Assembly: GCA_964016885.1 (NCBI GenBank)
Contig: OZ024755.1
Coordinates: 42,842,001 to 42,906,000 of the forward strand
Reading direction: 5' to 3'
DNA length: 64,000 nucleotides
Source of the DNA: Eledone cirrhosa
Taxonomy: Eukaryota
Shown here: positions 5,294-44,486 of the stretch, in pieces
How positions within the stretch are numbered: the first letter of the stretch is position 1
Layout of the letters: each line of letters begins with the position of its first letter
Translations under genes and position numbers: made by a program
The notes under the pieces: generated by a model
What the model was told of the DNA's origin: nothing
The model's database searches: none
What the model saw: only the letters and a program-made list of their open reading frames with translations

Positions 5294-5298
<5 letters not shown>

Positions 5299-5647: not shown

Positions 5648-5648
5648 A

Positions 5649-6850: not shown

Positions 6851-6873
6851 TAAATATAATTATTATTGGTTTC

Positions 6874-7539: not shown

Positions 7540-9610
7540 ATAAATCTGAGGATGTGTGTGTTAAGGTTTGTAACGGATTCACGTCCACAATTTCCAATGG
7601 ATTCAATTACAAAGTTGGGACAATTATTGCTTTTCGTCAGGAAAAGGTCATGAAGCAAAAAAATTTCAAATCCATTAACAATAAGGGCAAAATCGATCAT
7701 GATCATTCCCCCTCTCTATAATTTAACTGCTTTACTCTCTCTGTCGCTCTTCACTCCCTATACTGCAGTAGAGCGTTCCCTAACACTGCAGTAGAGCGTT
7801 CCGTATTGACATATGGCTTATCTGGGGCATTTTCAATCGGCCTATTGCAAATAACAACCCGCAAAATAACACTTCATATAACAGATTAATGCTATAGACA
7901 TATGAATCGGAATGTAACCCATGAACTTTTTCCTGGGCAAAATTATTCGAACAGACATGACCTCATTGACAGAGTGTTCAGACTGAAACAGGTTAAACTC
8001 ATGGCTTTAATCAAAAAGGGTCATGTATTTGGGACTGTAAATTGTGACATGTTCACCGTCGAATGGCAAAAATGAGGGCTGCCACATGCTCACATTTTGA
8101 TTTGGTTAGCTGATAAAATCAATTCAAATGCCATAGACAGCTTCATTTCGGCTGAAATCCATAACCCAGCAACTGACCAGGAATTACATGACATCGTCAA
8201 AGCTAACATGCTCCGTGTACGTCGGGTCCTAATGAGCATCACACGTGTCTGGGGGTCGTGCAGTAAGGGATACCCCCCAAAATTTGTTGACCAGACTCTG
8301 CCTGGTGGCGACGATACCCCCTGTACAGGCGGAGACGGCCCGAGAACGGTGGCTTCACCACAACAGTAAAGGGAGGTCAAGTCGAAAATAGATGGGTGGT
8401 CCCTTACTGCCCGCTTCTTTTGAAGATGTTCAACGTCCACATCAACGTTGAGTTTTGCAACTCCGTCAAGTCGATAAAATACATATGCAAATATGTAAAT
8501 AAGGGCTCTGATGCCGCAATGTTCGCATTTTAAGCTGAAAATAGCAGGGACGAGGTCACAGAATACCTGGCGGGGCGGTACATCAGTAGCAATGAAGCTT
8601 TTTGGTGCCTGTTTGGTTTACCCCTACACCAACGGCACCCCTCCATCGAACAGATTGCAGTACATTTGGAAAATGGGCAAAGGGTTTACTTTACGGACCA
8701 AACCGCCGCCAAGTTGGTCGCTGATCGGAAAGAGACCACTCTGATGGGTTTCTTCAAACTTTGCCAGTTCGATACATTTGGTCAAACAATTGTGTACCCT
8801 AGGTTCCATCCTACTTTATATGGTTGAAAAACACTTGGGTGCGAAGAAAGTCAGGTCAGGCTGTTGAAAGACATCCTGGTGTAAAATTTGACAGCTGTCT
8901 TCGAAGGGTTTACATTGTGCCCCCAAGTCAGCATGAGTGCTTTCATCTCCGCCTTCTTCTGCATGAAGTTGTAGGCCCACAAAGTTTTCAGGACCTCAAA
9001 ACTGTTGATGGAGAAATATGTGATATGTACCGGGAAGCCTGCTTTAAGTGTGGTCTTTTGGAAGATGATTTGCAATGGGATTCCACTTTAGCAGAGGGTG
9101 CTTTGTTGAAATCACCTAAAGTCTACGGGAACTCTTTGCCATTTTGCTTCAAAAGTGTGAATTGGGTGATCCCAAATCTTTATGGGTCAAGTACAGAGAC
9201 TTCATGTCTGAGGACTTCCTGGGCCTGGCTCATCTGCAGTATCCTTCAGTGGAAGTTGGTTACAGCGACATTATCTACAACAGGGCACTCATTGATATCG
9301 AGGATGCCCTCCTCGACATGGGTAGGAGTGAGTTGGTGACGTATGGCTTGCCGTCAACCGTCAGAGAGGAAGCTAACACGTTGGCCCTGGATTTGTTGCG
9401 GGAAACAGCATATGACATCGAATCTCTTTCCCAATAGTTAGAGGAAAATGAGCCCAGACTTCTGTTGGACCAAAGGTTGGCCTATTTAACTATCATTGAC
9501 GCGTTTCTCGATGCTCCTGGGGGTACCGGAAAAACTTTTGTAACAAAATTGATTCTGGCTAAGATTCATCAGGAGAAAAATATTGCGTTGGCCGTTGCAT
9601 CGTCCGGGAT
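7540..9610 (+). mobile_element. Degenerate Helitron RepHel fragment
   Basis: Rep motifs EWQK*GLPHAHILIWL and HINVEFCNSVKSIKYICKYVNKG; Pif1 Walker A FLDAPGGTGKTF and AVASSGI; many frameshifts. Confidence 0.9.
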
Positions 9611-12376
9611 CACTGTGGACTGTGTGTTTTTTTTTTGTCGTGACACCTACACGACCTCATTTATTTTGGACTGGATGTTGTGGTACCAACATAACTTTAC
9701 ATCGAAAGGGGTGGTGTGGATGGGGTGGGGGTGGTGGGACGTGGTGTATTTTTGTTAGAGGTGCCTACTGACTGTAGGTTTTGCTTTGTACTTAGGCAAG
9801 GCGGGTCTTCTGTATTAGTGTGTAGCGCCAAAGATCTCGGTCCAGTGACATTGTCTTGGAGAGGTGTAAGTGTGTGAGGTCGGAATTTATCAAGTCGTCT
9901 CAGGTTTTTCTTGGTCTGCCTACTCCGTGGCTACCGCCCTGCACTTTTTTATACAGCTGTCGTTTTTCATGCGCATCACGTGACCATACCAACGTAGTCT
10001 TCTCTCGAGTAAACAACATCTGATCGCTCTTATTCCTAATTTCTCCCTTAGTTCATTTATGCTTTGCCGTTCACGTATATTACTATTACACATCCAACGG
10101 AGCATGCAAGCTTCATTCCTCTCCAGTCTGCGTATATCCTCTGCACACAATGCCCAAGTCTCACTGCCATGTAACATTGCTGTTCGTATGCAGGCATCAT
10201 ACAGCCTGCCTTTCATTTTTAGAGAGAAACCTTTAGCGGCCAATAGTGGTATAAGCTCTCTGAACTTTTTCCATCCAGTTCTGACTCTGGCTACTGTACT
10301 TTCAGAGCACCCTCCACCACTGCTGATTTTGTCACCCAGGTAACGGAAGGTGTCCACTATTTCTATAGAACCATCTGTGCAATGGAATGAGCTAGTATTC
10401 TGTGGGCACTTGCTGCTACTTATTGCACCAGAGCACCGGCCACATATAAAATCTATATTCTTAGTTAGCTTACCTGTGATCCCACTACATCTTTTATGCA
10501 CCCATACTTTGCATTTGGGACATAAAATGGAGTTTCTGCCTACTCCTTTCCTACACACTGAGCATGGCCATTTCCCAGATGGGACCAGTACCCTATTTTC
10601 CTTCCTACAAACTAGAATTTTAGTCTTAGACAGGTTAATTTTAAGGCCTTTTGATTCAAGGCCATGCTTCCATGTTTGGAATTTCTTCTCTAGTTCAGCC
10701 ATTGATTTAGCTATGAGCGTTAGATCATCTGCGTATAGGAGTTCCCGTGGGCAGCCAGTCTTGAACTCCTCTGTTTTAGCCTGAAGGGCAATAATAAATA
10801 GTAGGGGGCTAAGTACTGAGCTCTGATGAACACCAACTTTTACGCTAAACTCTTCACTGTATTTGTTGTTAATTCTAACCTTGCTGACTGTTTCTTTATA
10901 CATGGCTTGTATAGCTCTCACAAGCCATTCATCAACACCTAGTTTTCTAAGAGCCCACCAGATAATTGAGCGGGGGACTCTGTCAAAGGCTTTCTCCAAG
11001 TCAACAAAAGCTAAGTATAGGGGTTTACTTTTAGCTAGGTACTTCTCCTGTAGTCGTACAATGAAAAGAGCGTCTGTTGTACTTTTACCTGACACAAACC
11101 CGAACTACATTTCATCTAGATCAATTCGCTCTCTGATTAGTTGCGCTATTACTTTTTCTGTGACCTTCATGACCTGGTCAATTAATTTATATATATGTAT
11201 ATATATATATATATATGCATATATATATATATATATATATATGTAGAAAAGATGAATATAAAATGAAAGTGCTTTTTTTTAAAAAAGGAATTTATTAGGT
11301 ATTGACATATGTTTCTGTAACAGACGGAATACCTATGTATAGCTGCTTGCGTAATCATATAATGTTAGCAAGTATTCGATAGCAAATGTATAATCAGTTG
11401 TCACTTCTTCAGAGATATTGGATATATTGGAAAAAATCAGAAAAATTGAAGTATTTATATTAGTTGTAGTAAAGGAAAAAGAGAGGGGATGGTATATGAC
11501 AGATGGCAATTCAATTTACTGGTAAACAAGTATATAAAGGGTTTCTAATGAGAATACAATGAGTACATGGTTTATTTTATCTAAATCAGAATTTTTGGGA
11601 GTGCCTATTTTAATCTATACTTGACCAATTGAACAATGGACAGGGCTGGTCAATTAATTTAATGCCTCTATAGTTTCCCCTATCTAGGGCATCACCTTTA
11701 CCCTTGTAGCAGTTAATGATGATGCTACTGCGCCAGTCCTTCGGAACGACCCCATTCTGTATGACTTAGTTTACTATCCGGGTGACCATAGTGTGTCCCA
11801 CCGTTCCAGATGCTTTCAGCATTTTGGCAACTATTTCCGAAGGCCCGGCCGCCTTGCCCGTCTTCATGTCTTTGATCGCCTTACTTATTATACTACCTTC
11901 AACTTGCACTGCTGGTCCCTCTATTGGGTCGATGTGGGGAAGACTGTCTTTCTCCCAATTAATCTCCTCATTTAGTAGCCTTTCGTAGTGACACTTCCAA
12001 GCTACCTTCTTATCAGCGTCAGTGATGGGGCAAGTACATCATCATCATTTAGGACACACTTCTCCCTGACAATATCACTGTTTTCCTTGACACATTGCCT
12101 AGCAATCCTGAACACCTCACGTTTTTGGTCCACGCGTTGTAGAACATGCTTGAACTTTCTTTCCTCTGCTTCCCTTCTTGCGAAGTACACTTGTCTCATA
12201 GCTTCCCTCCTGGCCACTTGATAGTCTTCTCTACTTCCCCCATCCCGCCATGCTTTCCAAGCCTGCTTTTTGGCCTTGATTGACCTCTCCACCTTACTGT
12301 TCCACCACCAAGTTACTCTCCTCCTGCCTATAGGCCTGCTCCAGCCACAGGTTTCATCTGTCGCCTTCAGCAGGTT
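9611..12376 (-). mobile_element. RTE LINE, 5'-truncated, interrupted at 11190-11645
   Basis: ORF 9920-11095 with FVDLEKAFD, LYADDL and PHD-like cysteines; upstream part continues at 11646-12376. Confidence 0.93.
11190..11645 (-). mobile_element. (TA)n-tailed insert with a 16-bp TSD and a hammerhead-like motif (PLE-like end)
   Basis: CTGGTCAATTAATTTA at 11174-11189 and 11646-11661; minus strand CUGAAGA...GAAA-CAUAUG-UC followed by AAUAAA and (TA)n. Confidence 0.6.
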
Positions 12377-16658: not shown

Positions 16659-17000
16659 TATGTCTATTAAATAAATTTATTATAAAATTATTCTGACACC
16701 AACACCTGACCTTAAGGTGCTTTTCTGTTACATTTGGACCAAGTTTCCTGTGTAAGAGTACTTTCTTTCTTCTCTCCGTCTTGGAGGTTCTAAAAAATGG
16801 TCATGGGAAGTTCCCTTCCTACATAGACTTAAACAGTAGAAAAAACAAACAAATTGCACTGTGTAACACAATTTTTGTCCTTAAGTAGAACCTATTATTT
16901 TCTATTTGCTTATACCTGGAAAGTATGAAAAATGCTTAATATTTCCTTAAAACTTTGCTTTTATGGCCATGATAATATTTCTATATTTACCTAATCCCAG

Positions 17001-19285
17001 ACTTGTTCCCCGATCTCCTCGAGGCGGTCTACTGCAACTGGCAACAGAACGGGAGAATTCCCTGTACTGTGACCAAGGGCGTAGTCACGCTAGTGAGGAA
17101 GGACGAGAACAAGGGGGACGAAATAAGTAACTTCAGGCCCATAACACTGCTAAATACAGAGTTACAGATTTTGGCCAAGGTGCTAGCAAAGAGGTTGGCG
17201 CTTGTCGTGGGCAACCTGGTGGGAGATGCGCAGACATGCGCTATCCCGTCCAGGTCCATCCATGACAACCTCCACCTCATGCGATACATCATAGAGAGGG
17301 TTGGGAACGAACCCGGCTTTGGTGGGGCTCTGATCAACTTGGATCAATCTAAGGCGTTCGATAGGGTCGACCATGGTTACCTGGATGCGGTGCTAGCGGC
17401 GGCAGGCTTCGGACCCGTTTTCAGGGGCTGGATCACTGCTATGCACAGCAGCCGCATCTGCTCTAGGGTGAAGGTGAACGGCTACCTCTCGGAGCCGTTC
17501 AAAATCGCGCGGTCCATCCGACAAGGGTGCCCTCTCTCCTCCCTTCTGTATGTGTTGACTCTCGAGCCACTACTGCGGAAGTTGGAGTTGTTGCAGGGCT
17601 TCCCTTTGGAACCGGGATTGCGGAAAGCGGTGTCGGCCTACGCCGATGACGTGACAGTAATGGTGTCGACGGCCTCCGAAATCGAGGCGGTCGGCACCTT
17701 ACTGGAGGAGTACGAAAAGTTCACAGGGGCTAAGCTGAACCGGGACAAGTCGATCGGTTTGCAACTCGGCACGTGGAGGGGCAGACCGATGCCCTCCGAT
17801 GGCGTCGTCGGACGCTGGACGGAGGGCCCGGTGAAGTTGCTCGGGGTCTGGTTCGGACCGGACCTCCAGGTGGAGAAAAACTGGGCGGAGGTTACGAACA
17901 GGGTGTTTGCACTGACCCAGAAGTGGGCCAGTTGCAAACTATCCCTGAAAGGTCGGGCGGAGGTGGCGAACACCTACATAGCGTCCGTCATCTACTACCG
18001 CCTGACCGTAGTGCCCTGCCCAAGGGAAACCCTCACCAAGATGGAGCGCGCGCTCTTCCAATTCCTTTGGAAGAGGCGGGCTCCTATGGTGAGGAGATCC
18101 ATCTGCTGTCAACACCCTTCGAAAGGAGGGCTGGGGATGCCGTGGCTAATGATGCGTAAACACGCATTAAGGCTACGGCACCTCTACGTATTCCTCACCG
18201 GACAACCGGTGTGGGCCTCGTTTGTGAGACGAACCTTTCCCAGACTCGTCTCACTCACCGAGCTGCAATCCTGGGTCAAGCAAAGACCGAGAAAACTGGG
18301 CGCCTGGCACACTGAGTGTGCCCAGGCGCTCACCGCCCTCTGGCAGGCGGATCCGGTTATCAGTGGAGACTCCACCGCAACATTCTATAGAGGGCTGGTA
18401 CGCAGCAGGTGCGACGACGCCCTCGGAGAAGCCCTAGACATGGAGGAGGACGAACTGGCCAGCCTGTTCGGTAGGACATTCAGCCCGGGACCTATGGACA
18501 ACTTCCAGAAGTCCCTGGCCTGGCAGTGCTACCGAGGGGCTTTACCCGTTCGAGAAAGGCTCTACAGACACGGGCGCCCGGGTAGGGACCCCGCCAAAAA
18601 GATCTGTCCCAGATGCGTGTGCGACGAGGAAACCATTGCACACGCATTGGTACACTGCTCGGGCGTAGCCGATCTGTGGGGCTATGTCGAACAACTGCTG
18701 TCAAGGGTGGGACCGATCCGGTTGACCACCGAGTCTATTGTGATGATCAAGCCGCCTCCCCCCTTCAAAGATGAAGCAGGGGCGGTGTTTCTGTGCGTGA
18801 TAGCCATGGCGAAAGAGGTTGTATGGTGGACGCGTCTGAAAGGACTGAGGTCAGGCAACTTTCTCTCTGGCCAACAACTGGTCCGTTTCTTCCGATATCA
18901 TTTCGGAAGAAGGATCAGGATGGAGAGAGAGGTGCTGCACCCCAGCCGTTTCTATGAAAGATGGGTGAAAGTGGCGAGAATGGCCCGTGTAAATGGGCCT
19001 TCACTCTACATCAGACTATAGGTGAAGAAGATGAAAGACCAAGGGAGCACCCCTTCTCTGTGCTCCTGAGGAGAAGGGTTGCACACTTTTTTCGGGGGTG
19101 TGTGCGACCCTCCAAGGCGCCTCCTCTCTATTGAGGATTTTGTTAAAAATTTTATTTTTTGTTATATCTTATTTTATTTTTATATTTTGTTATTGCCTCC
19201 TCCTTATTGAGGACGCCCTTTTGTGTAAACTCCCCCCTTTGTACTTGTCCCACTTTTGATGCCCTAGTGGCAAATAAAAGAAACA
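17001..19285 (+). mobile_element. Young 5'-truncated L1/Tx1-clade LINE; uninterrupted 672-aa RT plus zinc-binding ORF at 17003-19021
   Basis: NFRPITLLN, LDQSKAFDRV, RQGCPLS, AYADDV, LSLKGR, CPRC...ETIAHALVHC; 19-bp TSD TATATTTACCTAATCCCAG (16982-17000, 19286-19304). Confidence 0.93.
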
Positions 19286-22086: not shown

Positions 22087-22330
22087 GTGGAGGTGTATGG
22101 CCTAGTGGTAAGGTTGTTGAAATTACGATCATGACGTCATCAGGTTCAATTCCTGGACTGGGTCATGTTGTATTCTGGAGCGTCATTTGTCATTGCTTCA
22201 GTATACTCAGCTGAAAATGAGTACCAGTAATAGTTTGGGGTTTAACCATGTGATGTTCAGGCATCCTCTCCAGTTGCTTCACACCACAGAAACTGCAATA
22301 AGTACCAGCCTCAGCCTCTAGGCTTGAGAC
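22087..22330 (+). mobile_element. Diverged CORE-type SINE
   Basis: TGGCCTAGTGG A box, GGTTCAATTCC B box, ACTCAGCTGAAAATGAGTACC. Confidence 0.6.
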
Positions 22331-22451
22331 AAACCAAACATCTTATTTATTATATGAGGGGCCCACCAAACCTGCCCCAGGGCCCCACAAGATCTATATC
22401 TAGTGGTGGGTGACAGTGGGAGTTATAGCTGTCTTCTACATTAAACTGGTA

Positions 22452-22671
22452 GTCACATTAAGTAGTTCTAATCATACACTCACATGGAAAAGGCATTAAC
22501 AATCTCTTTTTGTTGGATCACTAAATTATGAGACTTAAACATACAGTCTATTTAATAATTTAACCATTTGAATAGACTGTATGTTTAAGTCTCATAATTT
22601 AGTGATCCAACAAAAAGAGATTGTTAATGCCTTTTCCATGTTAGTGTATGATTAGAACTACTTAATGTGAC
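22452..22671. repeat. Fold-back repeat (101-bp arms, 18-bp spacer)
   Basis: 22452-22552 vs 22571-22671, about one mismatch. Confidence 0.95.
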
Positions 22672-22887
22672 AGTTTTATTTTAGTTAGTATTTTATATTT
22701 AGATATATATTGTTTATTTCAATTTGTTAGGCAGGATAACACTCTAGTATTTAGTATTTTAAAATAATTTTATTATGGGATCGTAGTCTGTATTATTTAT
22801 AGGGCCATTCAGTAAATATTTTGATTTTCTTCTGGGTGTTTCAACTTTGAGATGTAGCTGTTTGACCTTCATTATACATTATATATA

Positions 22888-23075: not shown

Positions 23076-23200
<125 letters not shown>

Positions 23201-23221
23201 TATATATATATATATATATAT

Positions 23222-23266
<45 letters not shown>

Positions 23267-23759
23267 TTTCGTACTCATTACGCATGTACGCAAATATGAT
23301 TTAAATACTTAAATTGTATAAATCGGAGATTACATCTGGTATATATCCAATATAGTATGCAAGTGAACATTTTGTTTGCAAATTAGATTTTAGATATGTA
23401 CGCAACATATTAATTTTTTCATTTGTATATATATATATATAATATATATCCTAAACCGACGGTAGTCGGTTTAGTTTAGTATAATATTGTTGTCTTAGTG
23501 ATTTCGTTGGCAATCGTCTCTTTACAGCATTATTAGAATGTCTTCCGATTATCAAAATCACATGAAAGTTATATGAGCATGGAGAGTAAATCATTGCACA
23601 TCTCTTAAGCTAAAAATCTCGAAATTTCGTTCAGCACAAAAAAAGTTATGATCAAAGTTTGCTGAAAAAAACTGTGTTCAAGTGAGTAAGTGAGTGAGTA
23701 AGGGTGACGCTCTGTGCATTTGATGCATCTCTTGGGACTGGTCAGAGGAGGATAAGGGG

Positions 23760-24315
23760 TTATTCGGGGTGCGGCGCTTATTCGAACCCTCCCCCAGTGA
23801 CTGCGGTTATTCGGGGTGAGACGCTTATTCGAACCCCCCCCCCCCGCTTATTCGAACCCTCCCCCCAGTGACTGCGATTATTCGGGGTGCGGCGCTTATT
23901 CGAACCCTCCCCCCAGTGACTGCGGTTATTCGGGGTGCGGCGCTTATTCGAACCCTCCCCCCAGTGACTGCGATTATTCGGGGTGCGGCGCTTATTCGAA
24001 CCCTCCCCCCAGTGACTGCGGTTATTCGGGGTGCGGCGCTTATTCGAACCCTCCCCCAGTGACTGCGATTATTCGGGGTGAGGCGCTTATTCGAACCCCC
24101 CCCCCCCCCCACAGTGACTGCGGTTATTCGGGGTGCGGCGCTTATTCGAACCCCCCCCCACAGTGACTGCGATTATTCGGGGTGAGGCGCTTATTCGAAC
24201 CCTCCCCCAGTGACTGCTGTTATTTGGGGTGAGGGTCTTATTCGAACCCCCCCTAGTGACTGCGGTTATTCGGGGTGCGGTGGTTATTTGAACCCCCCCC
24301 CAGTGACTGCGGTTA
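23760..24315. repeat. About 49-bp GC-rich minisatellite (mirror at about 27873-28290 with fewer units)
   Basis: Unit GCTTATTCGAACCCTCCCCCCAGTGACTGCG(G/A)TTATTCGGGGTGCGGC. Confidence 0.92.
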
Positions 24316-24642
24316 TTTTTTTGAATTTGAATTTTAAATGTTGATACAATGTGGCAGTAAACATTAATCATTGAGCTAATTAGGAGCTATTATGTTCTCC
24401 TATCTCGCGATAAGTGGTCACACGTTGCAAACTAGTTGAGGTTGTCTTCTATTTATATTCAAATGAGTAATCACTCACTGCATTGTTCTCTTTCAAAGCA
24501 GTCGCTGATTGATATACTAGAAATTCAGAAAATCATTTGGATTTGTACTAATAGTTGTGAATAGTTGTGCTATTTTTTGTACCGATAGGTGCGAGTAGTG
24601 AACTCATTTGCGATAGGTGCGAATAGTGTGCTCATTTGACAT

Positions 24643-25305
24643 ATGAAAATGACGTCTCTCGGCTTTTTTATCGGCTTATTTATTTTGACTATTACAAATG
24701 AAAAATTTGTTTCCCTGCAAAAGTCTCGCCAAAATGGTCGCAAAAAAAATCGCAAAAGGTCACTTCATACGTTTCGCGGCTTTCGAAAAAAGTCACCATA
24801 TACGTTTCGCGGCTTTTTGATCGGCTTATTACTTTTTTGCCTGGCGCGAAAATGCAATATTTCCATTTCGAATGAAACAATTCCACAATCGGGCAATTCG
24901 AATGATGAAATTCACATTCAGGCGGCTTTTTACAAATCCAATAAACGAATTTACCCGATTTCCAATCAGAAATATAGAACACGTGCACTGATCTTATCAT
25001 TGCTTATTATCGGTTGTGTTGAATTAAATCCTGGACCTGAATTTGAATTCAATGAGACTGATAGTGCTTCCGAATGTCCCAAAGATCAAAAAATTCATAA
25101 AGAGAATGAAAAACGGAGAAAAAATGCCATTAGGAATAGGGAGTATAAAAAACGGAAAGCTGCTGAAATAAAAGAAAAAAGACAATCAGAACAAGCAAAA
25201 CATATGAATAATGCATACCAAAAAGCGCGTGAAGAAAATACAAAAATCCAAAAAAAATTATCATGTGAAAAATTGACAAAAAATCGACAAAAATGGCGTG
25301 CGTGA
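24643..25305 (+). CDS. Putative transposon-derived ORF with a 2A-like peptide and a basic/charged tract
   Basis: LSLLIIGCVELNPGP (GCVELNPGP at 25012-25038) followed by a K/R/E-rich helix; runs into about 63-bp tandem repeats. Confidence 0.4.
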   Translation: MKMTSLGFFIGLFILTITNEKFVSLQKSRQNGRKKNRKRSLHTFRGFRKKSPYTFRGFLIGLLLFCLARKCNISISNETIPQSGNSNDEIHIQAAFYKSNKRIYPISNQKYRTRALILSLLIIGCVELNPGPEFEFNETDSASECPKDQKIHKENEKRRKNAIRNREYKKRKAAEIKEKRQSEQAKHMNNAYQKAREENTKIQKKLSCEKLTKNRQKWRA

Positions 25306-26883
25306 AGAAAATCCAAAAATCCAAAAAAAAATTATCATGTGAAAAATTGACAAAAAATCGACAAAAATGGCGCGCGTGAAAAAAAATCAAAAAAACCCCA
25401 AAAAATTTGCATGTGAAAAATTGACAAAAAATCAACCAAAAATGGCGCGCGTGAAAAAAATCCCAAAAAAATTTGCATGTGAAAATTGATATTTGCCTTC
25501 TATTGCATTAGAATTTGTCATGTTTAATTAAAATGTTATTTTCAACTAAATGCAAATGGTGCAAATTTGCTCCATTTAGATTCAGTTGTTAATGCTCACC
25601 TACTAATTTAAAAAAATTGTATTTTCTTAAATGACTCTTATTTATCATAAGTTAATATTTTTAAGATAGGTGAGTGCTCCACGATCTGACCTATGTCCCC
25701 GCCATGTGGAGTGGATGCTTGTACCAATTAGATAAAATATCTCAACTTATTTCTGTGACTCCAATGCACAGGCTGACACTGTAGCTTGAATTAAATTCAA
25801 AATTGGTACAAGTAACTAAGAGGTCACAAAAGAATAGCTTCACTTTCACCTATAGTTTTCATTAACATCATTTTTGGGATTTTTTGATAGAAGTAACTAA
25901 AGTAATAACTATTTAATTAAGTAGTTGTTGTTTGCATTGCCTTGAAAAATAGGAAACTAGCTAGAAAAATGCGTACAGCAAAAAAAAGTAATATTGTTGG
26001 AACAAACCTTTAAAAATACAGGACAAGGAAGTAAGATAAACCTTTAAAAATACAGGACAAAGAACTAAGATAAAACTTTAAAATTTATATTCCTTGTCCT
26101 ATTCTTTTAAAGTTTTATCTTAGTTCTTTGTCCTGTATTTTTAAAGGTTTATCTTACTTCCTTGTCCTGTATTTTTAAAGGTTTGTTCCAACAATATTAC
26201 TTTTTTTTGCTGTACGCATTTTTCTAGCTAGTTTCCTATTTTTCAAGGCAATGCAAACAACAACTACTTAATTAAATAGTTATTACTTTAGTTACTTCTA
26301 TCAAAAAATCCCAAAAATGATGTTAATGAAAACTATAGGTGAAAGTGAAGCTATTCTTTTGTGACCTCTTAGTTACTTGTACCAATTTTGAATTTAATTC
26401 AAGCTACAGTGTCAGCCTGTGCATTGGAGTCACAGAAATAAGTTGAGATATTTTATCTAATTGGTACAAGCATCCACTCCACATGGCGGGGACATAGGTC
26501 AGATCGTGGAGCACTCACCTATCTTAAAAATATTAACTTATGATAAATAAGAGTCATTTAAGAAAATACAATTTTTTTAAATTAGTAGGTGAGCATTAAC
26601 AACTGAATCTAAATGGAGCAAATTTGCACCATTTGCATTTAGTTGAAAATAACATTTTAATTAAACATGACAAATTCTAATGCAATAGAAGGCAAATATC
26701 AATTTTCACATGCAAATTTTTTTGGGATTTTTTTCACGCGCGCCATTTTTGGTCGATTTTTTGTCAATTTTTCACATGCAAATTTTTTGGGGTTTTTTTG
26801 ATTTTTTTTTCACGCGCGCCATTTTTGTCGATTTTTTGTCAATTTTTCACATGATAATTTTTTTTTGGATTTTTGGATTTTCT

Positions 26884-27546
26884 TCACGCACGCCATTTTT
26901 GTCGATTTTTTGTCAATTTTTCACATGATAATTTTTTTTGGATTTTTGTATTTTCTTCACGCGCTTTTTGGTATGCATTATTCATATGTTTTGCTTGTTC
27001 TGATTGTCTTTTTTCTTTTATTTCAGCAGCTTTCCGTTTTTTATACTCCCTATTCCTAATGGCATTTTTTCTCCGTTTTTCATTCTCTTTATGAATTTTT
27101 TGATCTTTGGGACATTCGGAAGCACTATCAGTCTCATTGAATTCAAATTCAGGTCCAGGATTTAATTCAACACAACCGATAATAAGCAATGATAAGATCA
27201 GTGCACGTGTTCTATATTTCTGATTGGAAATCGGGTAAATTCGTTTATTGGATTTGTAAAAAGCCGCCTGAATGTGAATTTCATCATTCGAATTGCCCGA
27301 TTGTGGAATTGTTTCATTCGAAATGGAAATATTGCATTTTCGCGCCAGGCAAAAAAGTAATAAGCCGATCAAAAAGCCGCGAAACGTATATGGTGACTTT
27401 TTTCGAAAGCCGCGAAACGTATGAAGTGACCTTTTGCGATTTTTTTTGCGACCATTTTGGCGAGACTTTTGCAGGGAAACAAATTTTTCATTTGTAATAG
27501 TCAAAATAAATAAGCCGATAAAAAAGCCGAGAGACGTCATTTTCAT
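26884..27546 (-). CDS. Mirror copy of the 2A-like ORF
   Basis: Identical 220-aa translation; 2A-like codons at 27151-27177. Confidence 0.4.
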   Translation of the reverse strand: MKMTSLGFFIGLFILTITNEKFVSLQKSRQNGRKKNRKRSLHTFRGFRKKSPYTFRGFLIGLLLFCLARKCNISISNETIPQSGNSNDEIHIQAAFYKSNKRIYPISNQKYRTRALILSLLIIGCVELNPGPEFEFNETDSASECPKDQKIHKENEKRRKNAIRNREYKKRKAAEIKEKRQSEQAKHMNNAYQKAREENTKIQKKLSCEKLTKNRQKWRA

Positions 27547-28775
27547 ATGTCAAATGAGCACACTATTCGCACCTATCGCAAATGAGTTCACTACTCGCAC
27601 CTATCGGTACAAAAAATAGCACAACTATTCACAACTATTAGTACAAATCCAAATGATTTTCTGAATTTCTAGTATATCAATCAGCGACTGCTTTGAAAGA
27701 GAACAATGCAGTGAGTGATTACTCATTTGAATATAAATAGAAGACAACCTCAACTAGTTTGCAACGTGTGACCACTTATCGCGAGATAGGAGAACATAAT
27801 AGCTCCTAATTAGCTCAATGATTAATGTTTACTGCCACATTGTATCAACATTTAAAATTCAAATTCAAAAAAATAACCGCAGTCACTGGGGGGGGGGTTC
27901 AAATAACCACCGCACCCCGAATAACCGCAGTCACTAGGGGGGGGGTTCGAATAAGACCCTCACCCCAAATAACAGCAGTCACTGGGGGAGGGTTCGAATA
28001 AGCACCGCACCCCGAATAACCGCAGTCACTGGGGGGAGGGTTCGAATAAGCGCCGCACCCCGAATAATCGCAGTCACTGGGGGGAGGGTTCGAATAAGCG
28101 CCGCACCCCGAATAACCGCAGTCACTGGGGGGAGGGTTCGAATAAGCGCCGCACCCCGAATAATCGCAGTCACTGGGGGGAGGGTTCGAATAAGCGGGGG
28201 GGGGGGGGGGGGGGTTCGAATAAGCGTCTCACCCCGAATAATCGCAGTCACTGGGGGAGGGTTCGAATAAGCGCCGCACCCCGAATAACCCCTTATCCTC
28301 CTCTGACCGGTCCCAAGAGATGCATCAAATGCACAGAGCGTCACCCTTACTCACTCACTTACTCACTTGAACACAGTTTTTTTCAGCAAACTTTGATCAT
28401 AACTTTTTTTGTGCTGAACGAAATTTCGAGATTTTTAGCTTAAGAGATGTGCAATGATTTACTCTCCATGCTCATATAACTTTCATGTGATTTTGATAAT
28501 CGGAAGACATTCTAATAATGCTGTAAAGAGACGATTGCCAACGAAATCACTAAGACAACAATATTACTAAAACTAAACCGACTACCGTCGGTTTAGGATA
28601 TATATATATATATATACAAATGAAAAAATTAATATGTTGCGTACATATCTAAAATCTAATTTGCAAACAAAATGTTCACTTGCATACTATATTGGATATA
28701 TACCAGATGTAATCTCCGATTTATACAATTTAAGTATTTAAATCATATTTGCGTACATGCGTAATGAGTACGAAA

Positions 28776-28836
<61 letters not shown>

Positions 28837-28986
28837 CGTTCATACAAACATACAAGTATAATCATATTTATGAAGGTTATATGCATTTATACATAGACAT
28901 TATACATACTTATTTAATAATACCAACACCAGAACCAAACATTTCTTAATAAAACAACAATAATCATTTATTTCTTGATATTTACA

Positions 28987-29026
28987 CGAAGAAGAAGAAG
29001 AAGAAGAAGAAGAAGAAGAAGAAGAA
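28987..29026. repeat. (GAA)n microsatellite
   Basis: About 13 GAA units. Confidence 0.9.
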
Positions 29027-29111
29027 AATGATGATGAGGGAGGGGGGGGGGGGAGAAAGAGGAACAAAACAAGTGGAGGAGGAGGGGGATTATTGGAGTC
29101 GGAAGAAGAGA

Positions 29112-29380
29112 AAATGCACAGAGCGTCACCCTTACTCACTCACTTACTCACTTGAACACAGTTTTTTTCAGCAAACTTTGATCATAACTTTTTTTGTGCT
29201 GAACGAAATTTCGAGATTTTTAGCTTAAGAGATGTGCAATGATTTACTCTCCATGCTCATATAACTTTCATGTGATTTTGATAATCGGAAGACATTCTAA
29301 TAATGCTGTAAAGAGACGATTGCCAACGAAATCACTAAGACAACAATATTACTAAACCGACTACCGTCGGTTTAGGATAT
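29112..29380. mobile_element. Third copy of the Helentron/HINE-like terminal segment
   Basis: Near-identical to 28328-28600; ACTC micro-repeat and terminal hairpin CTAAACCGAC-TACC-GTCGGTTTAG. Confidence 0.55.
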
Positions 29381-29538
29381 AGAACAGACTTCTGCACATT
29401 TTCTTTCTACCAAATTTCACTCACATGGCATTGGTTAACCCAAGGCTATATTAGAAGACACTTGCCCAAGGTAGCAAGCAGTGAGGACTGAATGTGAAAC
29501 CATGTGGTTGCCTCCTTATCCAGTCAGTCATGCTATGT

Positions 29539-30812
29539 TTACAATTTTAGGTTGGTAGTTGACCTGTAAAAGCCATCATCTTGGTGGACTTGTTCTGTGG
29601 AACACAAATATAAGTTGTCAACAGGCTGCTCACCAAAATTACAGTTTATAAATCGTTCATATATGTCAGGTTTGATCTGATGTGATCCAATCAACCGACT
29701 GACCTGGTGAGTTAGTTTCATTATAGTCATATGAGGTGTAAAAACTTCATCAACCAACAGTTTCTCTTCTTGAAAGTAACATTTCAGTTTTTTAACAAGT
29801 CCTGTGAGTTCTTCTGGAACATCTGCGCAACCATAGATGACTCGGTTAGAGAATTGGTTGAGGTTTCTTATTCTTATTGGATTACAGCCAGCAACTGTTC
29901 TGGAAAGTTCTCCATGGAGATTTTTCAACAAGGTTGTAGCATCAGCAATTTGGGATGTCTGGTCTAGATGCAGCATGCACAGTGTTAGATGCAGACAAAC
30001 AGGTGGAATGAAACAATCAATGTAGGTTGGTTCATTCTTTAAGATTTCTTCCTTCATCGATGCAACTCTTTCCAATATTTCTTCATTCGTTATTCTCAAT
30101 GCTACAAAAAAATTGGGCCTTTTGGTTTTTGCACAGAATTCATCATCACAGAAAAGGTTAGGATCACTTAGCATTTCAGGTCCAGAATCTGATTCAAGAA
30201 GAAAATTTTCTTCAATATTGCATTTTAGTTGTTCTTCATAATTTGATATTACATCTGTTATTGTCATTTTACTTCCAGTTGACCCAAAAACCAAATCAAG
30301 ACGTTGTACTTTATCCCAAACTTTTATTGTCTTGTACTTGAAGTAAAATATTCTGTGTTTTGGAATGGCCAGTGTATAATAATCAACTGAAGAGATATCT
30401 TCCCAAGAAAAACTACTAAAAGATTTCTCAATAATTCCAACAAAACGATCCATATAACCTATGATAAAATCTTCAGATTTTATGTTGTCATCCCACAGAA
30501 TTCTAGAAATTACATCAGAAGCTGTCTTCATTGCTGGTTTCTTGTCAACAATTTTATCTTCTTTATTTTTTAAACATTTTTTTTTGGCATGTTTCACAGT
30601 TGGTTTGTTTTTACCTTTGACAGGCTCCATTATATCACCACTTTCGTTCTCTGTCACCCACTGAAGGCAGGCATCAACCAAATTCTGTATCATAGGTTTA
30701 CCAACAAATTGCTCAGATTTTTCCATTAAAAATGTCAACAGTTGTGTACTGTTTGTACTTGTAAGAATGTTTGAGAATGGAATTATGGCAGGGGTGACAT
30801 CAGGATATTGCT
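29539..30812 (-). CDS. LENG9: LENG9-like gene, last exon: end of RWD, MJ1316/DUF504, AKAP7-like 2H phosphoesterase
   Basis: MKTASDVISRILWD...IGYMDRFVG...IPKHRIFYFKY...VWDK (MJ1316); RPNFFVALRI, LHLTL and PHMTI (two HxT motifs); acceptor ttttatttgcag/ at 30813/30812. Confidence 0.85.
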
Positions 30813-31883
30813 CTGCAAATAAAACACACATAATAAAATTAGATATTTATGATTACACATTGACAATAATAGACTTTTGTATTAAAAAATAAAAGGGACA
30901 GGGGTTAGCCTTGCAAGTTCCATATTGGACATGTTTTGTGGGAAACTCAAGTTTTGTGTGTCCAATTTCATTACTCCAGAATCATTGCTATGAGTACCAG
31001 CTATATAACTGGGTTAACACTTCTAATGCCAAACTACCTGAAACCACACCTGGTTCTATGACACTCAGCTGTATATTTTAAAGTATTTATGTTTATCTAA
31101 AAACCTACCATCATAATTGTTTCTACTTTTGGCACAAAGCTAGCAATTACCCAGTACATTGTGGGTACTTTATTTTATCGACCCCGTAAGGATGAAAGTA
31201 TTTATATTTATCTAAAAACCTACCATCATAATGTTATGTAAGACCATTTATGTTTAATAATAAGAAAGTTATTTTACTAAATCTTTCCAATTTCTTGATT
31301 ATTTTCAAAATGGATTTTAAAATTACGGGCAGAATTTTTCATTTGGGTTAAGTTAGAGAATTATCTTGCTAACATTCTTCCTTTATTAAAAACAGATCTA
31401 TCTGTACTTGATAAAGAAATAGTCATTCTTACAGCAGTAAGAATCTATAGATAGTAGAGTGTAGTACCAAATACATTGGTTAGTATTACAGTTTTAATGT
31501 TGTAGAGATTTAATTTGTCATTCATCTCCCTATCGATACAAAACCTTCTGGAACTAACACTGTTTCTACATTACAAAGGTATTCATCTTAAAATGGTCAT
31601 CATCATTTAACGTCCACTTTCCCTACATAGAGTCACTACCTAAGCAGGGCTACTGACCTCCCAGACAAGCCGAAAGGTCTGTATCTAGCTTAAGAACAGT
31701 CATATGTTCTATCAAGGACACAGGAGAGGTTGTCGTGTTTTTTTACACAATTAAGGGTCTTTCCAACCCCTTCTTTGGCAGGCTTTCTACGGGATACACT
31801 TCTTACCACCAACCACTTTACTGGTTCATGTTTATCTAAAATTATGATTTGTTTCAACATAAGTTTTTCCAATATATTCTTAC

Positions 31884-32879: not shown

Positions 32880-33650
32880 TCATTAAATGAGGAATTACGA
32901 TATTTCTCATTCCAAAGCCTCTGGATAAACAACATTCTTGGTTTTCTCCTGTGGTGCTACAATGAAGAGACAATCAGGGTTTCCAAGCCTTGTTGTACCA
33001 ACATAGAGTTGATTTGTGAAAAGACAGGATCTGCCAGGTTCAACCCAACGACTTTCAATGATTGCCCTTGAGATTTATTGATGGTTATGGCAAAACCGAG
33101 TCTGATAGGGAATTGAAGTCTTTGAAATTCAAATGGCAAATCAGTTGGCTTCAGAGGTATTCTGGGAATGAAACAATTGTCACCAGCAAATTTCCTGGCA
33201 TGAACATTGGACATCATATTTTTGATGATGAGTCTTGTGACATTGCAAAGTTTTGGAGGATCCAGATTATGAAGTAACATAACCGATGCTCCAAGCTTCA
33301 GTATCAGGTTGTGTGGAGGAATTCCTGCTTGTTCAAGACTATTCAAACAAATTTAATTGGATAGTTTACAACCTGGTTTAGGGAACTGATTGTGTCAACT
33401 GATTTTTAGCATCTTTTCTTTCATGGTAACATGTCCAGCAGCCTTCTGTTGATTTATTTTACAGCAACATTTTTCAGTGCTAAGATTGCTTGTTCCCAGA
33501 GACATTGTCTGATCTGAATATTTGCAAACACTCTTGCAATCAGTTCTTGTTCTGTGTCAATGATATGGCCAAATGACAACTGAATATGGTCATTGGAGTC
33601 CTTTTCAAAAGCCCATTTCCCAATTTAAGTAGTTGGATGGCAAACTCACT
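32880..33650 (-). mobile_element. Helitron Pif1-helicase C-terminal fragment
   Basis: GIPPHNLILKLGASVMLLHNLDPPKLCNVTRL, FQRLQFPIRLGFAITINKSQGQSL. Confidence 0.88.
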
Positions 33651-35886: not shown

Positions 35887-36715
35887 TTCATTCATTCATT
35901 CATTTTACGTCTGCTTTTTCCCTGCTTGCAAGGGTGGGACAGGAACTGATTCTGGCTTGATTTCTACAGCTGGATGCCCTTCCTAACACCAACCTCATTT
36001 ACAGTGAGTGCTGGGTGCTTTTTTGCCATGGCACCTCCACGACCACTTTGCAGTGGAATGATAGGGACCCCAGTCCCTATCATCTTATTTCTACAGCTGA
36101 GTAAACTGGAGCAATGTGAAATAAAGTGTCTTGCTCAAGGAAACAACACATCACCCGGTCTGAGAATTGAGCTCACAACCTTTCGATTGCAAGGCCAATG
36201 CTCTAACCACTAAGCCATGTGCCTATACGTGTGTATATATATATATATATAATCTGTCTGTCTGTCTGTCTGTATGTATGTATGTATGTATATATATAGT
36301 AATAATAATAAATTTGAAGACTAAAATCCAAAGAGGGCTCGATAAGGATAAATATATATCAAATATATAAGTGGAGGCACATGGCTTAGTGGTTAGAGCA
36401 TTGGTCTTGCAATCGAAAGGTTGTGAGTTCAATTCTCAGACCGGGTGATGTGTTGTTTCCTTGAGCAAGACACTTTATTTCACATTGCTCCAGTTTACTC
36501 AGCTGTAGAAATGAGATGATAGGGACTGGGGTCCATATCATTCCACTGCAAAGTGGTCGTGGAGGTGCCACGGCAAAAAGGCACCCAGCACTCACTGTAA
36601 ATGAGGTTGGTGTTAGGAAGGGCATCCAGCTGTAGAAACCAAGCCAGTATCAGTTCCCATCCCACCCTTGCAAGCAGGGAAAAGCGGACGTAAAATGAAA
36701 TGATGATGAATGATG
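35887..36715. mobile_element. Head-to-head inverted pair of full-length CORE-type SINEs (35887-36224 minus, 36372-36715 plus)
   Basis: Both closely match the 16320-16658 copy; heads about 150 bp apart. Confidence 0.88.
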
Positions 36716-36754: not shown

Positions 36755-36861
36755 ATTAAAGTTTAAGCAAAGAATCGCTGCTTTCACCCTTAACGGGATC
36801 TTCTGAAACTCAGAAGATCGCGTTAAGGGTGAAAGCAGCGATTCTTTGCTTAAGCTTTAAT
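36755..36861. repeat. Short fold-back with a degenerate hammerhead-like core
   Basis: About 50-bp arms around AAAC; CAGAAGA-UC(C/G)CGUUAAGGGU-GAAA. Confidence 0.7.
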
Positions 36862-36874
36862 AAATATATATATA

Positions 36875-38520
36875 TTTCGTTTCTGAATTTGTTTAGCAAG
36901 ATTCTTTATCTGAAAACGTGTGTTGAAACCGATATTGTTATACTTTGGGAGGGTCATGTTGCCAGTAAGAAACACACGCACCAGCTGCTTTCACTTCAAT
37001 TTATTATAAATTAAATTTATAAATTTCCGGTTGGTTGGTTGGTTCCACAACCAGACGATTGTTCATATATTGTCAAAGTTCTTTCGTCACACATTCTGTG
37101 ACCTCTTCAGTGACTGGGGATTATTTTCTTTGTTTTTGTGACTCTCCTTTATTGTGTCCTACGCCATCTTGTTTTTGTGTGTTGTGTGCTTAGTTTGCGC
37201 ATGTGTTACATCCGGGTGTCTGTATGTGTTTATATTTGTTTATTTATTTGTTTATTTACATGTTACTGGTTGGTTGTTTGTTCTATGTGTGTGTGTTTTT
37301 TCATTTTGTCCTTAATTGTAAGTTGTGATGTTGCTATTCCATTCATCCTTTCTATTTAATTTTGGTTGGAGTTCATTTATGTTTATTGCCTCTGTGATTT
37401 GTCTAAACATTGCGTCTTTTCTGTGTGTAGATTCTATTTTTATTTCTATGTTCTTTAATTTACCCTTATGTACTATTTTAGCATGTTGGTAGAGTACAGA
37501 TGATTCTTTATTATCTTAAAGCTCTCGCCAGTGTTCATTTATCCGTTCCCCTACGCTACGAGCTGTCTCACCTATGTACACTATATTCTTATCTCTACAT
37601 TGTCCTTCAGTACATCTTATGCTATATACTACATTTCTAGTTTTACAGTTAATATGGGGGCTTAGTTTACAGATTATACATTTCTTATCTATACAGGGAG
37701 GTCTTTGAAAAGGGTATGTATTGCTAATAAGTGTTTTTATCAAGGTACCTCTCGATATCTTAATATTGAGTTTATGTTTATCTAGGGCCCTTCTGAATTT
37801 GTAAGCTAATTCACCTCTAGGGGTTGTATCGATGAACATTACACTCTGGTATTTATTGCTATCATACCATAAGTTTATTCTATTAACCTTATTCCTAGTT
37901 CTTTCTATTCTATTCCAAAATTTGCTCCTATACAAGGGGTAGGTCCCATTTGTATCATTATTTACCATTTTTTCCCATTTGGTTCTGGCTCCTCTATATA
38001 CTCTGATCTTATCTCTCTGATTGTAACCAGAGAACTGCATACGGTGGATGAAGTGTTGTATGTGTCTCTCTAGTTCTTTGGGGTTGTACATGCGGGACAC
38101 GTTCCTCATCACCCGTACCAAATCCGCAATCAGTATGTTGATTTTGGTATGGTCCGAAACAGCTGAGTTTCGGTGGATCAGATATTTGGAAGTCATGGGT
38201 TTGGCATAATGGGAATGGAGGATCTGTTTTTTGTTATTGATAGTATCTAACCAGAGCTCTGTGTCTAGTACAGGTAATCGATTGTTGGGGTGTTTGCCCT
38301 GGGTAGTCTATAGTAACTCTAATACTCTGGTGGATGGAGTTAGCTATTTGCTGGACCTTTCCATGGTGTTTTTCTCTAATTCCTGACTGTTCTCTAGTGG
38401 GGGTGTTTTTACTACAATGTTTATATCATCAACATAGCGGGAGTACATTATCAGGGTTAAGAGGTTGCTGTCTTCTAATTGTTCTTTAAGTTTAAGTTTA
38501 AGTCTATTGTCCCACCAAAC
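36875..38520 (-). mobile_element. 5'-truncated Penelope-like element (Naiad-like): RT end, thumb, GIY-YIG, pseudo-LTR
   Basis: VWWD...YSRYVDDI; CxxxxCxxC linker; VVYSIRC...YIGETARSVGERINEH; frame continues past the TAA at 37516 to RQITEAINI...LNRKDEWN; HHR at 37072-37114. Confidence 0.88.
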
Positions 38521-39950
38521 TACTATGCTTCTATCTCGGAGCCCCTCCTGAAGGACGCAATTACCTTTGCCAGGAATTTTACCACCATTACCGATGCTGA
38601 GCAAGTTGTTATCCTCCACACCCGTAAGACCTTTCTATACCACGATGGATCTTACTGGATCAACAAGAAGTCTCAGACCCCATTTGACGTCAGCATGGGA
38701 GTGAGTGACTTGGCTGAAATTAGCGACCTTGTGGGCCTATACATTTTACATCACCCGAAGAACCTCTTTACTGGCCTAACCGGAGGTTTATACCGAGACG
38801 ACGGCCTCTTCGCCCTGCACAAGGTTAACCCCAGAACCACCGATGGGTTTCGAAGAAACTTAAGCTCGTTCTTCTGTAATCTAGGATTTAGTATAACTAT
38901 AGAATCTAATATGACTAGGGCCAACTTCTTAGATGTCACTCTCGACCTAGATACTTGCCTCTATTACCCGTACCACAAACCTAACGAGTCCCTTAGATAT
39001 ATTAATGTTAATTCTAACCAGCCCCAAAACATCACTGATAACTTAGTAAATAGCATATCTATTAGAATCTCTGGCCTCTCTGCCAATGAAGATATTTTTA
39101 ACGCCTCTGCCTCCTACTACAATGACGCCAGAGGAGGAATAGGCATAGGCAGATTAGCTGGTACAACCCTCCATTCAATAGAGAGGTCTCTACATCTATA
39201 GCTAGGATTTTCTTCACTTTGCTGAACACACACTTCCCCATACAACATAGGTACTACACCATCTTTAATAAGAACACAATAAGACTCTCCTACTCCACCA
39301 CACCTAACCTAGCTAGGAATATAGCCAATCACAATTCTAAAAAATTAAATAAGCCAACCACCTCCGAACTGGGGCCTTGTGTAATTGCCTAAATAAGGAA
39401 GCCTGCCCACTTGAAAACAAATGCCTGACAAATGATATCGTATACAAATGCGATGTCATCTCAGGCACCGATGATTGCAACACAAAAAGACTTACATCGG
39501 CATGACTTCCAATAACTTTAAGACCCGTTGGTATGCCCATACCCACTCCTTCAGAATACCGGACAAATCAAACCAGACAACACTCGCCTCCTATGTTTGG
39601 GACCTCAAAAGGAACTCCACCCCCTTCACGCTTAAATGGAAAATACTCCAGAAAGCGCGCTCTTACAACGGAGGACACAAGGGCTGCGACCTTTGTATCT
39701 CAGAGAGCTACGATATTTTATTTGCCAAGGGCCCGCTGCTGAACAAACTCTCTGAACACTGCCCGAACTGCATGCACAAAAACTTTGCAACTTTCAAATA
39801 CCTTAAGCCAGTTGTTAATGCCCGATGGCTAAAAACGACTTCCCCCTTTTAGCCCCTCTACCTCCTTCCCGTCCCACCCCTACTCAATCTGAAACACGGC
39901 CACTATGGTTATGTGAGTACCTCTTACCTATCTGCATTTTCTGCTTGTAG
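38517..39950 (+). mobile_element. 5'-truncated Penelope-like element (YRDD, Hydra-like clade)
   Basis: FDVSMG...LVGLYIL, GLYRDDGL, NFLDVTLDL, PYHKPN; CNCLNKEACPL; TYIGMTSNNFKTRWYAH; CDLCISE; LLNKLSE...CMH. Confidence 0.88.
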
Positions 39951-43895: not shown

Positions 43896-43897
43896 AA

Positions 43898-44240: not shown

Positions 44241-44486
44241 TACTCCAGTCCTACAAACTGTAGAGTGCTTCTTATCCGATATCTGCATTGCTTTATTGTA
44301 CTACAATAAAACTCACCTCCTACATATATAAATATATATGTATTTATGTATATATATATATATATATATGTATATGTGTGTATATGTGTGTGTATGTGTG
44401 TATATATATATATATATGTATATGTGTGTATATGTGTGTGTATATATATATATATATATATGTATATATGTGTATATGTGTGTGTA

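What the first reader, a model, noticed from the sequence alone, without database searches (positions are those of the whole stretch)
23262..28780. 5.5-kb palindrome with convergent mirrored 2A-peptide ORFs
Seen: arms of about 2.8 and 2.7 kb around a 21-bp spacer, bounded by (TA)n. The 220-aa mirror ORFs are identical, but the arms differ in minisatellite copy number, homopolymer lengths and a few bases (GGGACTGG vs GGGACCGG, AATCAACC vs AATCGACC). It lies between two convergent genes. Inference: a giant version of the fold-backs found throughout the window, able to form a cruciform or a multi-kb hairpin RNA. It may be a Helentron end copied back on itself.
Basis: partly seen in the sequence, partly recalled or inferred. 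Interest (0 to 1): 0.72.

Follow-up and report, generated by a model that had tools for sequence, protein, structure and literature searches.

The report
Folded-back copy of a Helitron transposon
This 5.5-kb mirror-image stretch is one copy of a young rolling-circle jumping gene (Helitron) whose copies all carry an inverted duplicate of their own tail; this copy likely folded back inside that duplicate during or soon after insertion and was re-copied onto itself, so it is likely a one-off accident and not a working two-gene unit.

Summary
The palindrome is in the sequence as described (arms 23262-26083 and 26105-28780, 21-nt loop). It is not a new element. Each arm is part of a young family of about 50 copies of a shortened Helitron in an octopod genome. 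Normal copies run A|TC...CTAG|T without target duplication, have an 11-kb HLE2-type parent (2A-like motif, Rep, helicase, UCH, no endonuclease) and end in a 1,115-bp cassette bounded by 174-bp inverted repeats. Only 1 of 48 loci is palindromic, and its centre is unique in the genome. The right arm runs on to a true transposon end at 29377; the left arm stops in (TA)n. Both arms share three minority markers found together in none of 47 other copies, which points to one donor. Best reading: fold-back DNA synthesis inside the 3' repeat, rejoined through TA repeats. The mirrored 'ORFs' are deletion stubs of the transposase gene. No read bridged the centre, so an artefact is not excluded; private differences in each arm argue against it. 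The scan noted this lineage's fold-back tail and 2A motif before, on other DNA. Added here: flipped, swapped and replaced cassettes show the tail rearranges often.

The parts
23078..23262 (.). Left junction: (TA)n tract with three extra GAG interruptions (23150, 23197, 23222) that repeat the first letters of the arm; no Helitron terminus here
   Evidence: no such interruption in the last 110 nt before this module in 13 other copies or in the right arm
23263..26083 (+). Left arm: inferred secondary (fold-back) copy of the element body; lacks the outer ~550 bp of the 5' end
23449..23474 (+). Inner 5' terminus: TC preceded by A, then a 10-bp stem-loop; the 12-bp subterminal repeat follows
23750..24318 (+). 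~46-bp minisatellite; left arm has the family's standard 13-unit order, right arm lacks three units
24640..25305 (+). Transposase stub: first ~196 codons of the RepHel frame, cut by an internal deletion at about 25228 and joined to the parent's 3' non-coding part
25012..25038 (+). 2A-like motif GCVELNPGP (C where the 2A core has D); activity untested
25957..26083 (+). Internal inverted copy of the element's 3' end (first 127 of 174 bp), standard in the family
26080..26108 (.). Fold-back centre: AAAA / 21-nt loop / TTTT; junction 26-mer occurs once in the genome
26105..26231 (+). Mirror of the inverted repeat; reads on + as an intact 3' terminus ending CTAG, but is followed by element body instead of host DNA
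26084..29377 (-). Right arm plus extension: inferred original insertion, 'long 5' variant' of the family, lacking its spacer and true 3' end
26884..27549 (-). Mirror transposase stub with 2A-like motif at 27151-27177
28781..28830 (.). (TA)n tract internal to the long variant; the point where the mirror image ends
28831..29377 (-). Outer 5' module with second stem-loop terminus; precise A|TC junction with host DNA at 29378/29377
   Evidence: a contig of run X2 covers 29152-30000
29539..30846 (-). Host LENG9-like gene (RWD, MJ1316, AKAP7 2'-5' ligase-like), last exon; stop codon 160 bp from the element

Best explanation
The palindrome is a single, rearranged copy of a non-autonomous HLE2-type Helitron family whose 5' end sits at a precise transposon junction on the right, and whose 3' end likely broke or stalled inside the family's inverted-repeat tail, likely folded back on four A-T pairs, was likely extended by a polymerase along its own body for 2.8 kb, and was likely joined to the host through TA repeats. 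Shown: family membership, ends, parent element, uniqueness of the palindrome and of its centre, arm asymmetry, shared and private variants. Inferred: the fold-back, the TA-guided rejoining ((TA)n is its own reverse complement, so an inverted copy can pair with any TA tract), and the timing. I favour an aborted integration rescued by host repair over a later break (about 55:45), because no trace of the original 3' end remains and the arms differ about as much as young family copies differ from the family majority. It likely has no function of its own.
For: Arm matches at least 40 loci at ~100%. 49 exact matches of the body/inverted-repeat junction; only the window has an opposite-strand pair. 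Centre 26-mer: 1 match in 3.0 Gb. 45 of 45 scored 5' ends follow A, 45 of 45 scored 3' ends precede T; neighbouring repeat units join without added bases in 6 copies. Right arm continues to A|TC at 29377 as in the long variant (13 of 47 copies carry its inner module); the left arm ends in TA with three junction-specific repeats of the arm's first letters. Both arms carry long variant + a short duplication beside the stem-loop + C25399; 0 of 47 other copies have all three. Private substitutions: 3 left, 1 right, 3 of the 4 at CpG; other full-length bodies carry 0.97 singletons per 1,764 bp. One fold-back accounts for the lost spacer, the regenerated CTAG end and its read-through. Inverted duplications with 2-8 bp inverted microhomology are described in humans (PMC3907307, passages); Helraiser lacking its right end still makes canonical TC-A junctions with odd 3' ends (PMC4778049 section 11).
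Against: No contig or read bridged the centre or the left junction in the 6 runs laid. The 4-bp hairpin is unstable by itself (+1.7 kcal/mol), and 158 of 1,075 positions in the cassette offer such a hairpin, so the microhomology is no more than chance. The same junction would result from deleting the spacer out of a full panhandle-primed dimer. The shared markers lie in slippage-prone sequence, and gene conversion between arms could also make them shared. The CpG excess (3 of 4 versus 2 of 28 singletons, Fisher p 0.008) compares unequal regions and tiny numbers.
Confidence: 0.68

Rival explanations
1. Trapped hairpin dimer. In the single-stranded transposition intermediate the 3' CTAG end pairs with its internal inverted copy, primes synthesis along the body, and gives body-IR-spacer-IR'-body'. 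This dimer integrated here and later lost its spacer; dimers resolved from the other end give copies with a flipped spacer, as in parvovirus flip/flop (recalled).
For: The 174-bp panhandle puts the 3' end exactly at the body junction. 1 of 47 copies has the spacer flipped, 1 has a sister family's spacer in flipped orientation, 2 have homogenised inner edges, 1 has the spacer replaced. The cassette is kept in a sister family about 75% identical in the protein.
Against: 0 of 47 other copies and 0 of the first 100 listed of 387 sister-family matches form a mirrored pair. It needs a second event (spacer loss). Flips also follow from ordinary recombination between inverted repeats. The left arm lacks a true terminus.
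Confidence: 0.13
2. Sequencing or assembly artefact: a fold-back read or a mis-join of two loci through the repeat.
For: Unique junction with no read support here. Fold-back artefacts make up about 0.6% of ONT genomic reads (PMC12870357, passages); the platform of this assembly is unknown to me.
Against: Flanks are different and each arm has private substitutions absent from all other scored copies, plus a 3-unit deletion; a folded read would give arms alike but for read errors. A graph mis-join through the repeat would keep the spacer. The right junction is bridged by a contig of sample S2. The same paper saw virtually no fold-backs in HiFi data.
Confidence: 0.1
3. Two independent insertions landed tail to tail in one TA tract; the middle was later deleted and the arms homogenised.
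For: The family targets TA-rich sites and has a same-strand pair 5.2 kb apart.
Against: The three-marker haplotype is in both arms and in 0 of 47 others; the left copy has no outer A|TC end; it needs three or more events.
Confidence: 0.05
4. Penelope-type twin priming: an antisense RNA of the Helitron was reverse-transcribed from both ends of a cut TA tract, giving a mirror insertion with a tail on one arm (lead from earlier notes e1-8668198, e1-10326545).
For: Mirror form, one longer arm and a TA border match that architecture; weak GIY-YIG hits lie at 37516-39852.
Against: The right end coincides to the base with the Helitron's own A|TC terminus, which an RNA route does not explain; the centre is a self-complementary turn in the DNA.
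Confidence: 0.03

Closest known systems
proto-Helentron of Phytophthora (PMC4067079 section 11; PMC11417382 section 24; both read)
   Same: HLE2-type RepHel without endonuclease; 3' CTAG; inserts between A and T without duplication; ~12-nt terminal inverted repeats; stem-loop at the 5' end.
   Different: 5' TC instead of TT; stem-loop directly beside the left repeat; animal host; UCH domain and 2A-like motif; 174-bp internal inverted copy of the 3' end with a variable spacer.
HLE2-reverse, FoHeli3/4/5 of Fusarium (PMC5148889 passages; PMC11417382 section 24)
   Same: 5' hairpin upstream of the left inverted repeat, none at the 3' end; multiple 5' termini, explained there by self-insertion.
   Different: Different terminal letters; the passages read describe no long fold-back tail and no palindromic copy.
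Canonical Helentron / DINE-1 / HINE (PMC4067079 passages)
   Same: Rep F-W-R signature, subterminal inverted repeats, internal minisatellite, no target duplication.
   Different: No endonuclease found; stem-loop at the opposite end; A|T instead of T-rich target; G-A-P instead of G-S-P in motif 2.
Fold-back inverted duplications (PMC3907307 passages)
   Same: Mirror arms around a non-duplicated spacer bounded by a few bases of inverted microhomology.
   Different: Kilobases instead of megabases, 21-nt instead of 0.8-70-kb spacer, healed locally in a TA tract, and started inside a transposon.
2A/StopGo peptides, class A (PMC12338488 passages; core D(V/I)ExNPGP from an abstract)
   Same: Leucine-rich stretch, G-x-V-E-x-N-P-G-P near the start of a long frame.
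   Different: Cys replaces the core Asp; in the window it precedes only about 90 residues of a truncated frame.

Membership tests
Helitron-like elements (any) | Autonomous partner with Rep (HUH) and PIF1 helicase sharing both ends | tested here: met
   ~11.2-kb copies on C13 and C10 share both termini; PF14214 E 1.5e-26, PF05970 E 3.2e-20. Both frames are interrupted.
Helitron-like elements (any) | No target-site duplication | tested here: met
   Neighbouring repeat units join with no added bases in 6 copies, clearest in L043 and L065.
HLE2 group | DUF6570 and Rep F/Y-w-R signature; UCH typical of subgroups c/d | tested here: met
   DUF6570 E 9.2e-18, FWRLEYQQRG, UCH E 1.7e-7 (criteria).
HLE2 group | Short terminal inverted repeats | tested here: met
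   12-bp repeat after the 5' stem-loop and 31 nt before the 3' end (output, read by eye).
HLE2 group | Placement in the HLE2 clade by phylogeny | not tested
   No labelled reference set was fetched; homologues share DUF6570/UCH.
Helentron (strict) | APE endonuclease after the helicase | tested here: not met
   No Pfam endonuclease hit in the two parent frames scanned; UCH follows the helicase.
Helentron (strict) | [quoted passage not shown] | tested here: not met
   A|T in 45 of 45; stem-loop at the 5' end relative to the ORF.
HLE1 (canonical Helitron) | 5' TC, 3' CTRR, A|T target | tested here: met
HLE1 (canonical Helitron) | G-L-P in Rep motif 2, no DUF6570 | tested here: not met
   G-A-P and DUF6570 present.
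Fold-back inverted duplication | Inverted microhomology at the edges of a single-copy spacer | tested here: inconclusive
   4 bp present, but such matches are common in this cassette (158 of 1,075 positions).
Fold-back inverted duplication | Both arms from one template | tested here: met
   Three-marker haplotype in both arms, 0 of 47 others; conversion between arms not excluded.
Foldback/MITE-type mobile palindrome | Palindromic unit dispersed in several copies | tested here: not met
   1 of 48 loci; centre unique.
2A/StopGo peptide | Core D(V/I)ExNPGP | tested here: not met
   CVELNPGP in window, parent and a sister copy.
2A/StopGo peptide | Ribosome skipping | not testable with these tools
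   Needs a reporter assay.

The most novel reading that the evidence does not exclude
This Helitron lineage uses its inverted tail as a self-priming panhandle, so that transposition passes at times through a hairpin dimer, like rolling-hairpin replication; the 5.5-kb palindrome is a trapped dimer, and the flipped, swapped and replaced spacers are its resolved products and a route for capturing DNA.
Probability: 0.13. Interest if true: 0.75.

Novelty: new variant of a known kind. Interest (0 to 1): 0.38.

Why it matters
The palindrome alone is a damaged transposon copy. Its value is as a footprint: with 5 of 47 sister copies altered at the same cassette, it shows that the long inverted tail of this HLE2 lineage is a site of frequent rearrangement. 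How HLE2 elements end a round of copying has not been shown in the papers read, and this family gives a direct test (delete or shorten the internal repeat; look for dimers). I found no paper listing a Helitron with such a tail or a palindromic copy in three full-text searches (listings and abstract starts only). It also shows that a near-perfect multi-kb palindrome can sit in an animal assembly 160 bp from a gene's stop codon, where it could be fragile or yield double-stranded RNA (untested).

Tried and rejected
Read support: no joint at the centre in X1, X2, X4, X5 or X1, X2, X3, X9. This is no evidence of absence: the contigs drop rare paths beside sequence at 300- to 13,000-fold depth, and X9 is reduced-representation data from another sample. 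A 59-nt contig at single-copy depth in X1 lay on both sides of the loop in two pieces, not across it; it may be a tandem-unit variant and was not counted. No RNA holder listed; X2 covers the gene and the stub but little of the unique DNA at 22267-22800, which looks like an RNA library but is not on record, so no expression claim is made. First reading as a canonical Helitron1 from the ends alone: dropped after the parent's domains. L076 first scored as flipped: only one inner edge is converted. A complete count of mirrored pairs in the sister family could not be made; only 100 of 387 matches were listed. Rfam gave only a weak tRNA at 36382-36439 and no ribozyme in the window. The 219-aa stub and the 205-aa spacer frame have no Pfam hit; the spacer frame has a sub-threshold PHD-finger likeness (score 0.82). 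A look-up of earlier notes by sequence found nothing. PMC12338488 does not mention helicases or transposons in its main text. Supplementary figures of PMC11417382 (S17-S19) and PMC4067079, not seen, may bear on the end comparison. No structure or complex prediction was run.
Full report
Observation. The palindrome is present as described: arms 23262-26083 and 26105-28780 (2,822 and 2,676 nt), a 21-nt loop, TA tracts outside. The two 221-codon frames are identical at the DNA level. After parsing the minisatellite by unit, the arms differ by four substitutions (23739, 23806, 25434 private to the left arm; 28004 private to the right), a three-unit deletion in the right arm, and homopolymer and TA-length changes.

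Setting. The window lies on contig C15 of a 3.0-Gb genome. The neighbouring gene, ending at 29539 on the minus strand, is LENG9-like, 74% identical to an Octopus vulgaris protein and 68% to an Argonauta one, so the host is likely an octopod.

The arm is a dispersed transposon. A 1.7-kb piece matched 40 scored candidate loci at up to 100%. An exact 30-mer at the junction of body and internal repeat gave 49 matches; two are the window's arms, and no other two lie on opposite strands near each other. I fetched all 47 others and parsed them. Normal copies are about 3.6 kb (up to about 4.4 kb with extra 5' modules). All 45 scored 5' ends are TC after A and all 45 scored 3' ends are CTAG before T; two copies were too long for the 5' end to be in range and two end in a variant. 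In six copies lying in repeats, neighbouring units show the empty site with no added bases. The 5' end holds a 10-bp stem-loop followed by a 12-bp repeat whose complement lies 31 nt before the 3' end.

Parent. A protein search found a 1,904-codon frame on C13 and a broken one on C10. Both lie in ~11.2-kb elements with the same two ends. The protein has the 2A-like motif, DUF6570, Rep with FWRLEYQQRGAPHIH, PIF1 helicase and, after an in-frame stop, the helicase end and a UCH domain; no endonuclease hit. By the criteria in PMC11417382 (passages and section 24) and PMC4067079 (passages and section 11) this is an HLE2 element with proto-Helentron/HLE2-reverse-like ends, not a strict Helentron. The window's 'ORF' is the first ~196 codons of this frame, cut by a deletion at a 4-bp match and run into 3' non-coding DNA. 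Its motif has Cys for the core Asp, also in the parent and one sister copy; only 1 of 62 homologues, most of them covering other parts, showed a similar motif.

The family's tail. Every normal copy ends in a 1,115-bp cassette: a 174-bp inverted copy of the 3' end, a ~770-bp spacer, then the true end. A sister family keeps the design with an unrelated spacer. Of 47 copies, 44 have the standard spacer (2 of them with one inner edge converted to the other), 1 has it flipped, 1 has the sister's spacer in flipped orientation, and 1 has it replaced by a short palindromic repeat. Earlier notes of this scan describe the lineage's fold-back tail and 2A motif on other DNA; they are unreviewed and agree with what I had found.

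What happened here. A contig of run X2 spans this junction. It runs through the body into the internal repeat and, 156 nt into it, turns at AAAA-21-TTTT; this centre occurs once in the genome. The mirror copy passes the regenerated CTAG end, copies the whole body and stops in the TA tract that the long variant carries internally. The left junction is TA-to-TA, with three extra repeats of the arm's first letters not seen in 13 other copies. Both arms carry the same three minority markers (13, about 6, and 7 of 47 singly; 0 of 47 together). One donor, one turn and a TA-guided rejoin explain all of this (inference). The arms' 4 substitutions in about 2 x 2.7 kb are close to the 0.97 singletons per 1,764 bp of other full-length copies, so the event is about as old as the family's spread.

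Against. The 4-bp match is weak and common; the same junction could come from spacer loss in a panhandle-primed dimer; no read bridges the centre. The artefact reading stays at about 0.1 because a folded read would not give each arm its own substitutions, three of four at CpG, nor a unit deletion.

Other fold-backs. A scan found 12 short-spacer palindromes in the 64-kb window, this one included, against 25 in 460,529 bp of 55 fetched loci, about half of which is the element itself. One (22452-22671) is single-copy; several at 52820-54202 share a dispersed repeat that earlier notes assign to Penelope-like stubs (not tested). They need not share a mechanism with the giant one.

Verdict. Real with about 0.9 probability; a one-off fold-back of a young non-autonomous HLE2 copy (0.68); probably without function. 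The lineage's tail is a variant of Helitron design that I did not find in print, and the palindrome is its most extreme rearrangement. Interest 0.38. Papers: PMC11417382, PMC4067079, PMC4778049 passages plus the named sections; PMC5148889, PMC3907307, PMC12338488, PMC12870357 passages only; others as listings. Parvovirus flip/flop and templated-repeat junctions as a repair signature are recalled.

Noticed in passing
L043 (C3:198.31 Mb), L088 (C1636), L084 (C28:136.38 Mb), L064, L076: The 3' cassette is flipped in one copy, carries a sister family's spacer in another, is replaced by a short palindromic repeat in a third, and has converted inner edges in two.
   Followed up: partly
L088:845-1852 and 6075-7001: The DNA on the two sides of this copy is itself a large inverted duplication (about 99%), on a small unplaced contig.
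   Followed up: no
L123:1971-2588: The standard spacer holds a 205-codon frame with a weak PHD-finger likeness; the sister spacer is unrelated.
   Followed up: partly
L122:2850-9998, L124: Two ~11.2-kb near-autonomous parents; both end the long frame at the same place inside the helicase, with the rest and a UCH domain in frame behind the stop in L122.
   Followed up: partly
L047, L060, L066, L069, L072, L079, L087: Many copies carry two to seven stacked 5' termini, some as 25-bp tandem units of the stem-loop.
   Followed up: no
window 22452-22671: 220-bp palindrome (101-bp arms, 18-nt loop) in single-copy DNA; X1 and X4 contigs stop at its arms.
   Followed up: partly
window 5293-5648, 43897-44241, 52820-54206, 36755-36861, 49341-49499, 50350-50505: Further short fold-backs beside TA tracts; those at 52820-54206 share a dispersed repeat also found inside L084.
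   Followed up: partly
window 35916-36683: 309-bp inverted arms around a spacer with a weak Rfam tRNA match at 36382-36439 (SINE-like).
   Followed up: no
window 26093-26125: Contig depth here reaches about 13,000 against 5-8 in unique DNA (X1), so relatives of this tail number in the thousands; one sister 30-mer alone has 387 exact matches.
   Followed up: partly
window 7890-9758, 32957-33352, 37516-39852, 16976-19021, 58668-62216: Remnants of another Helitron with G-L-P in motif 2, Penelope-like GIY-YIG pieces, an L1/Tx1-like RT frame and an LTR-retrotransposon-like gag-pol region.
   Followed up: no
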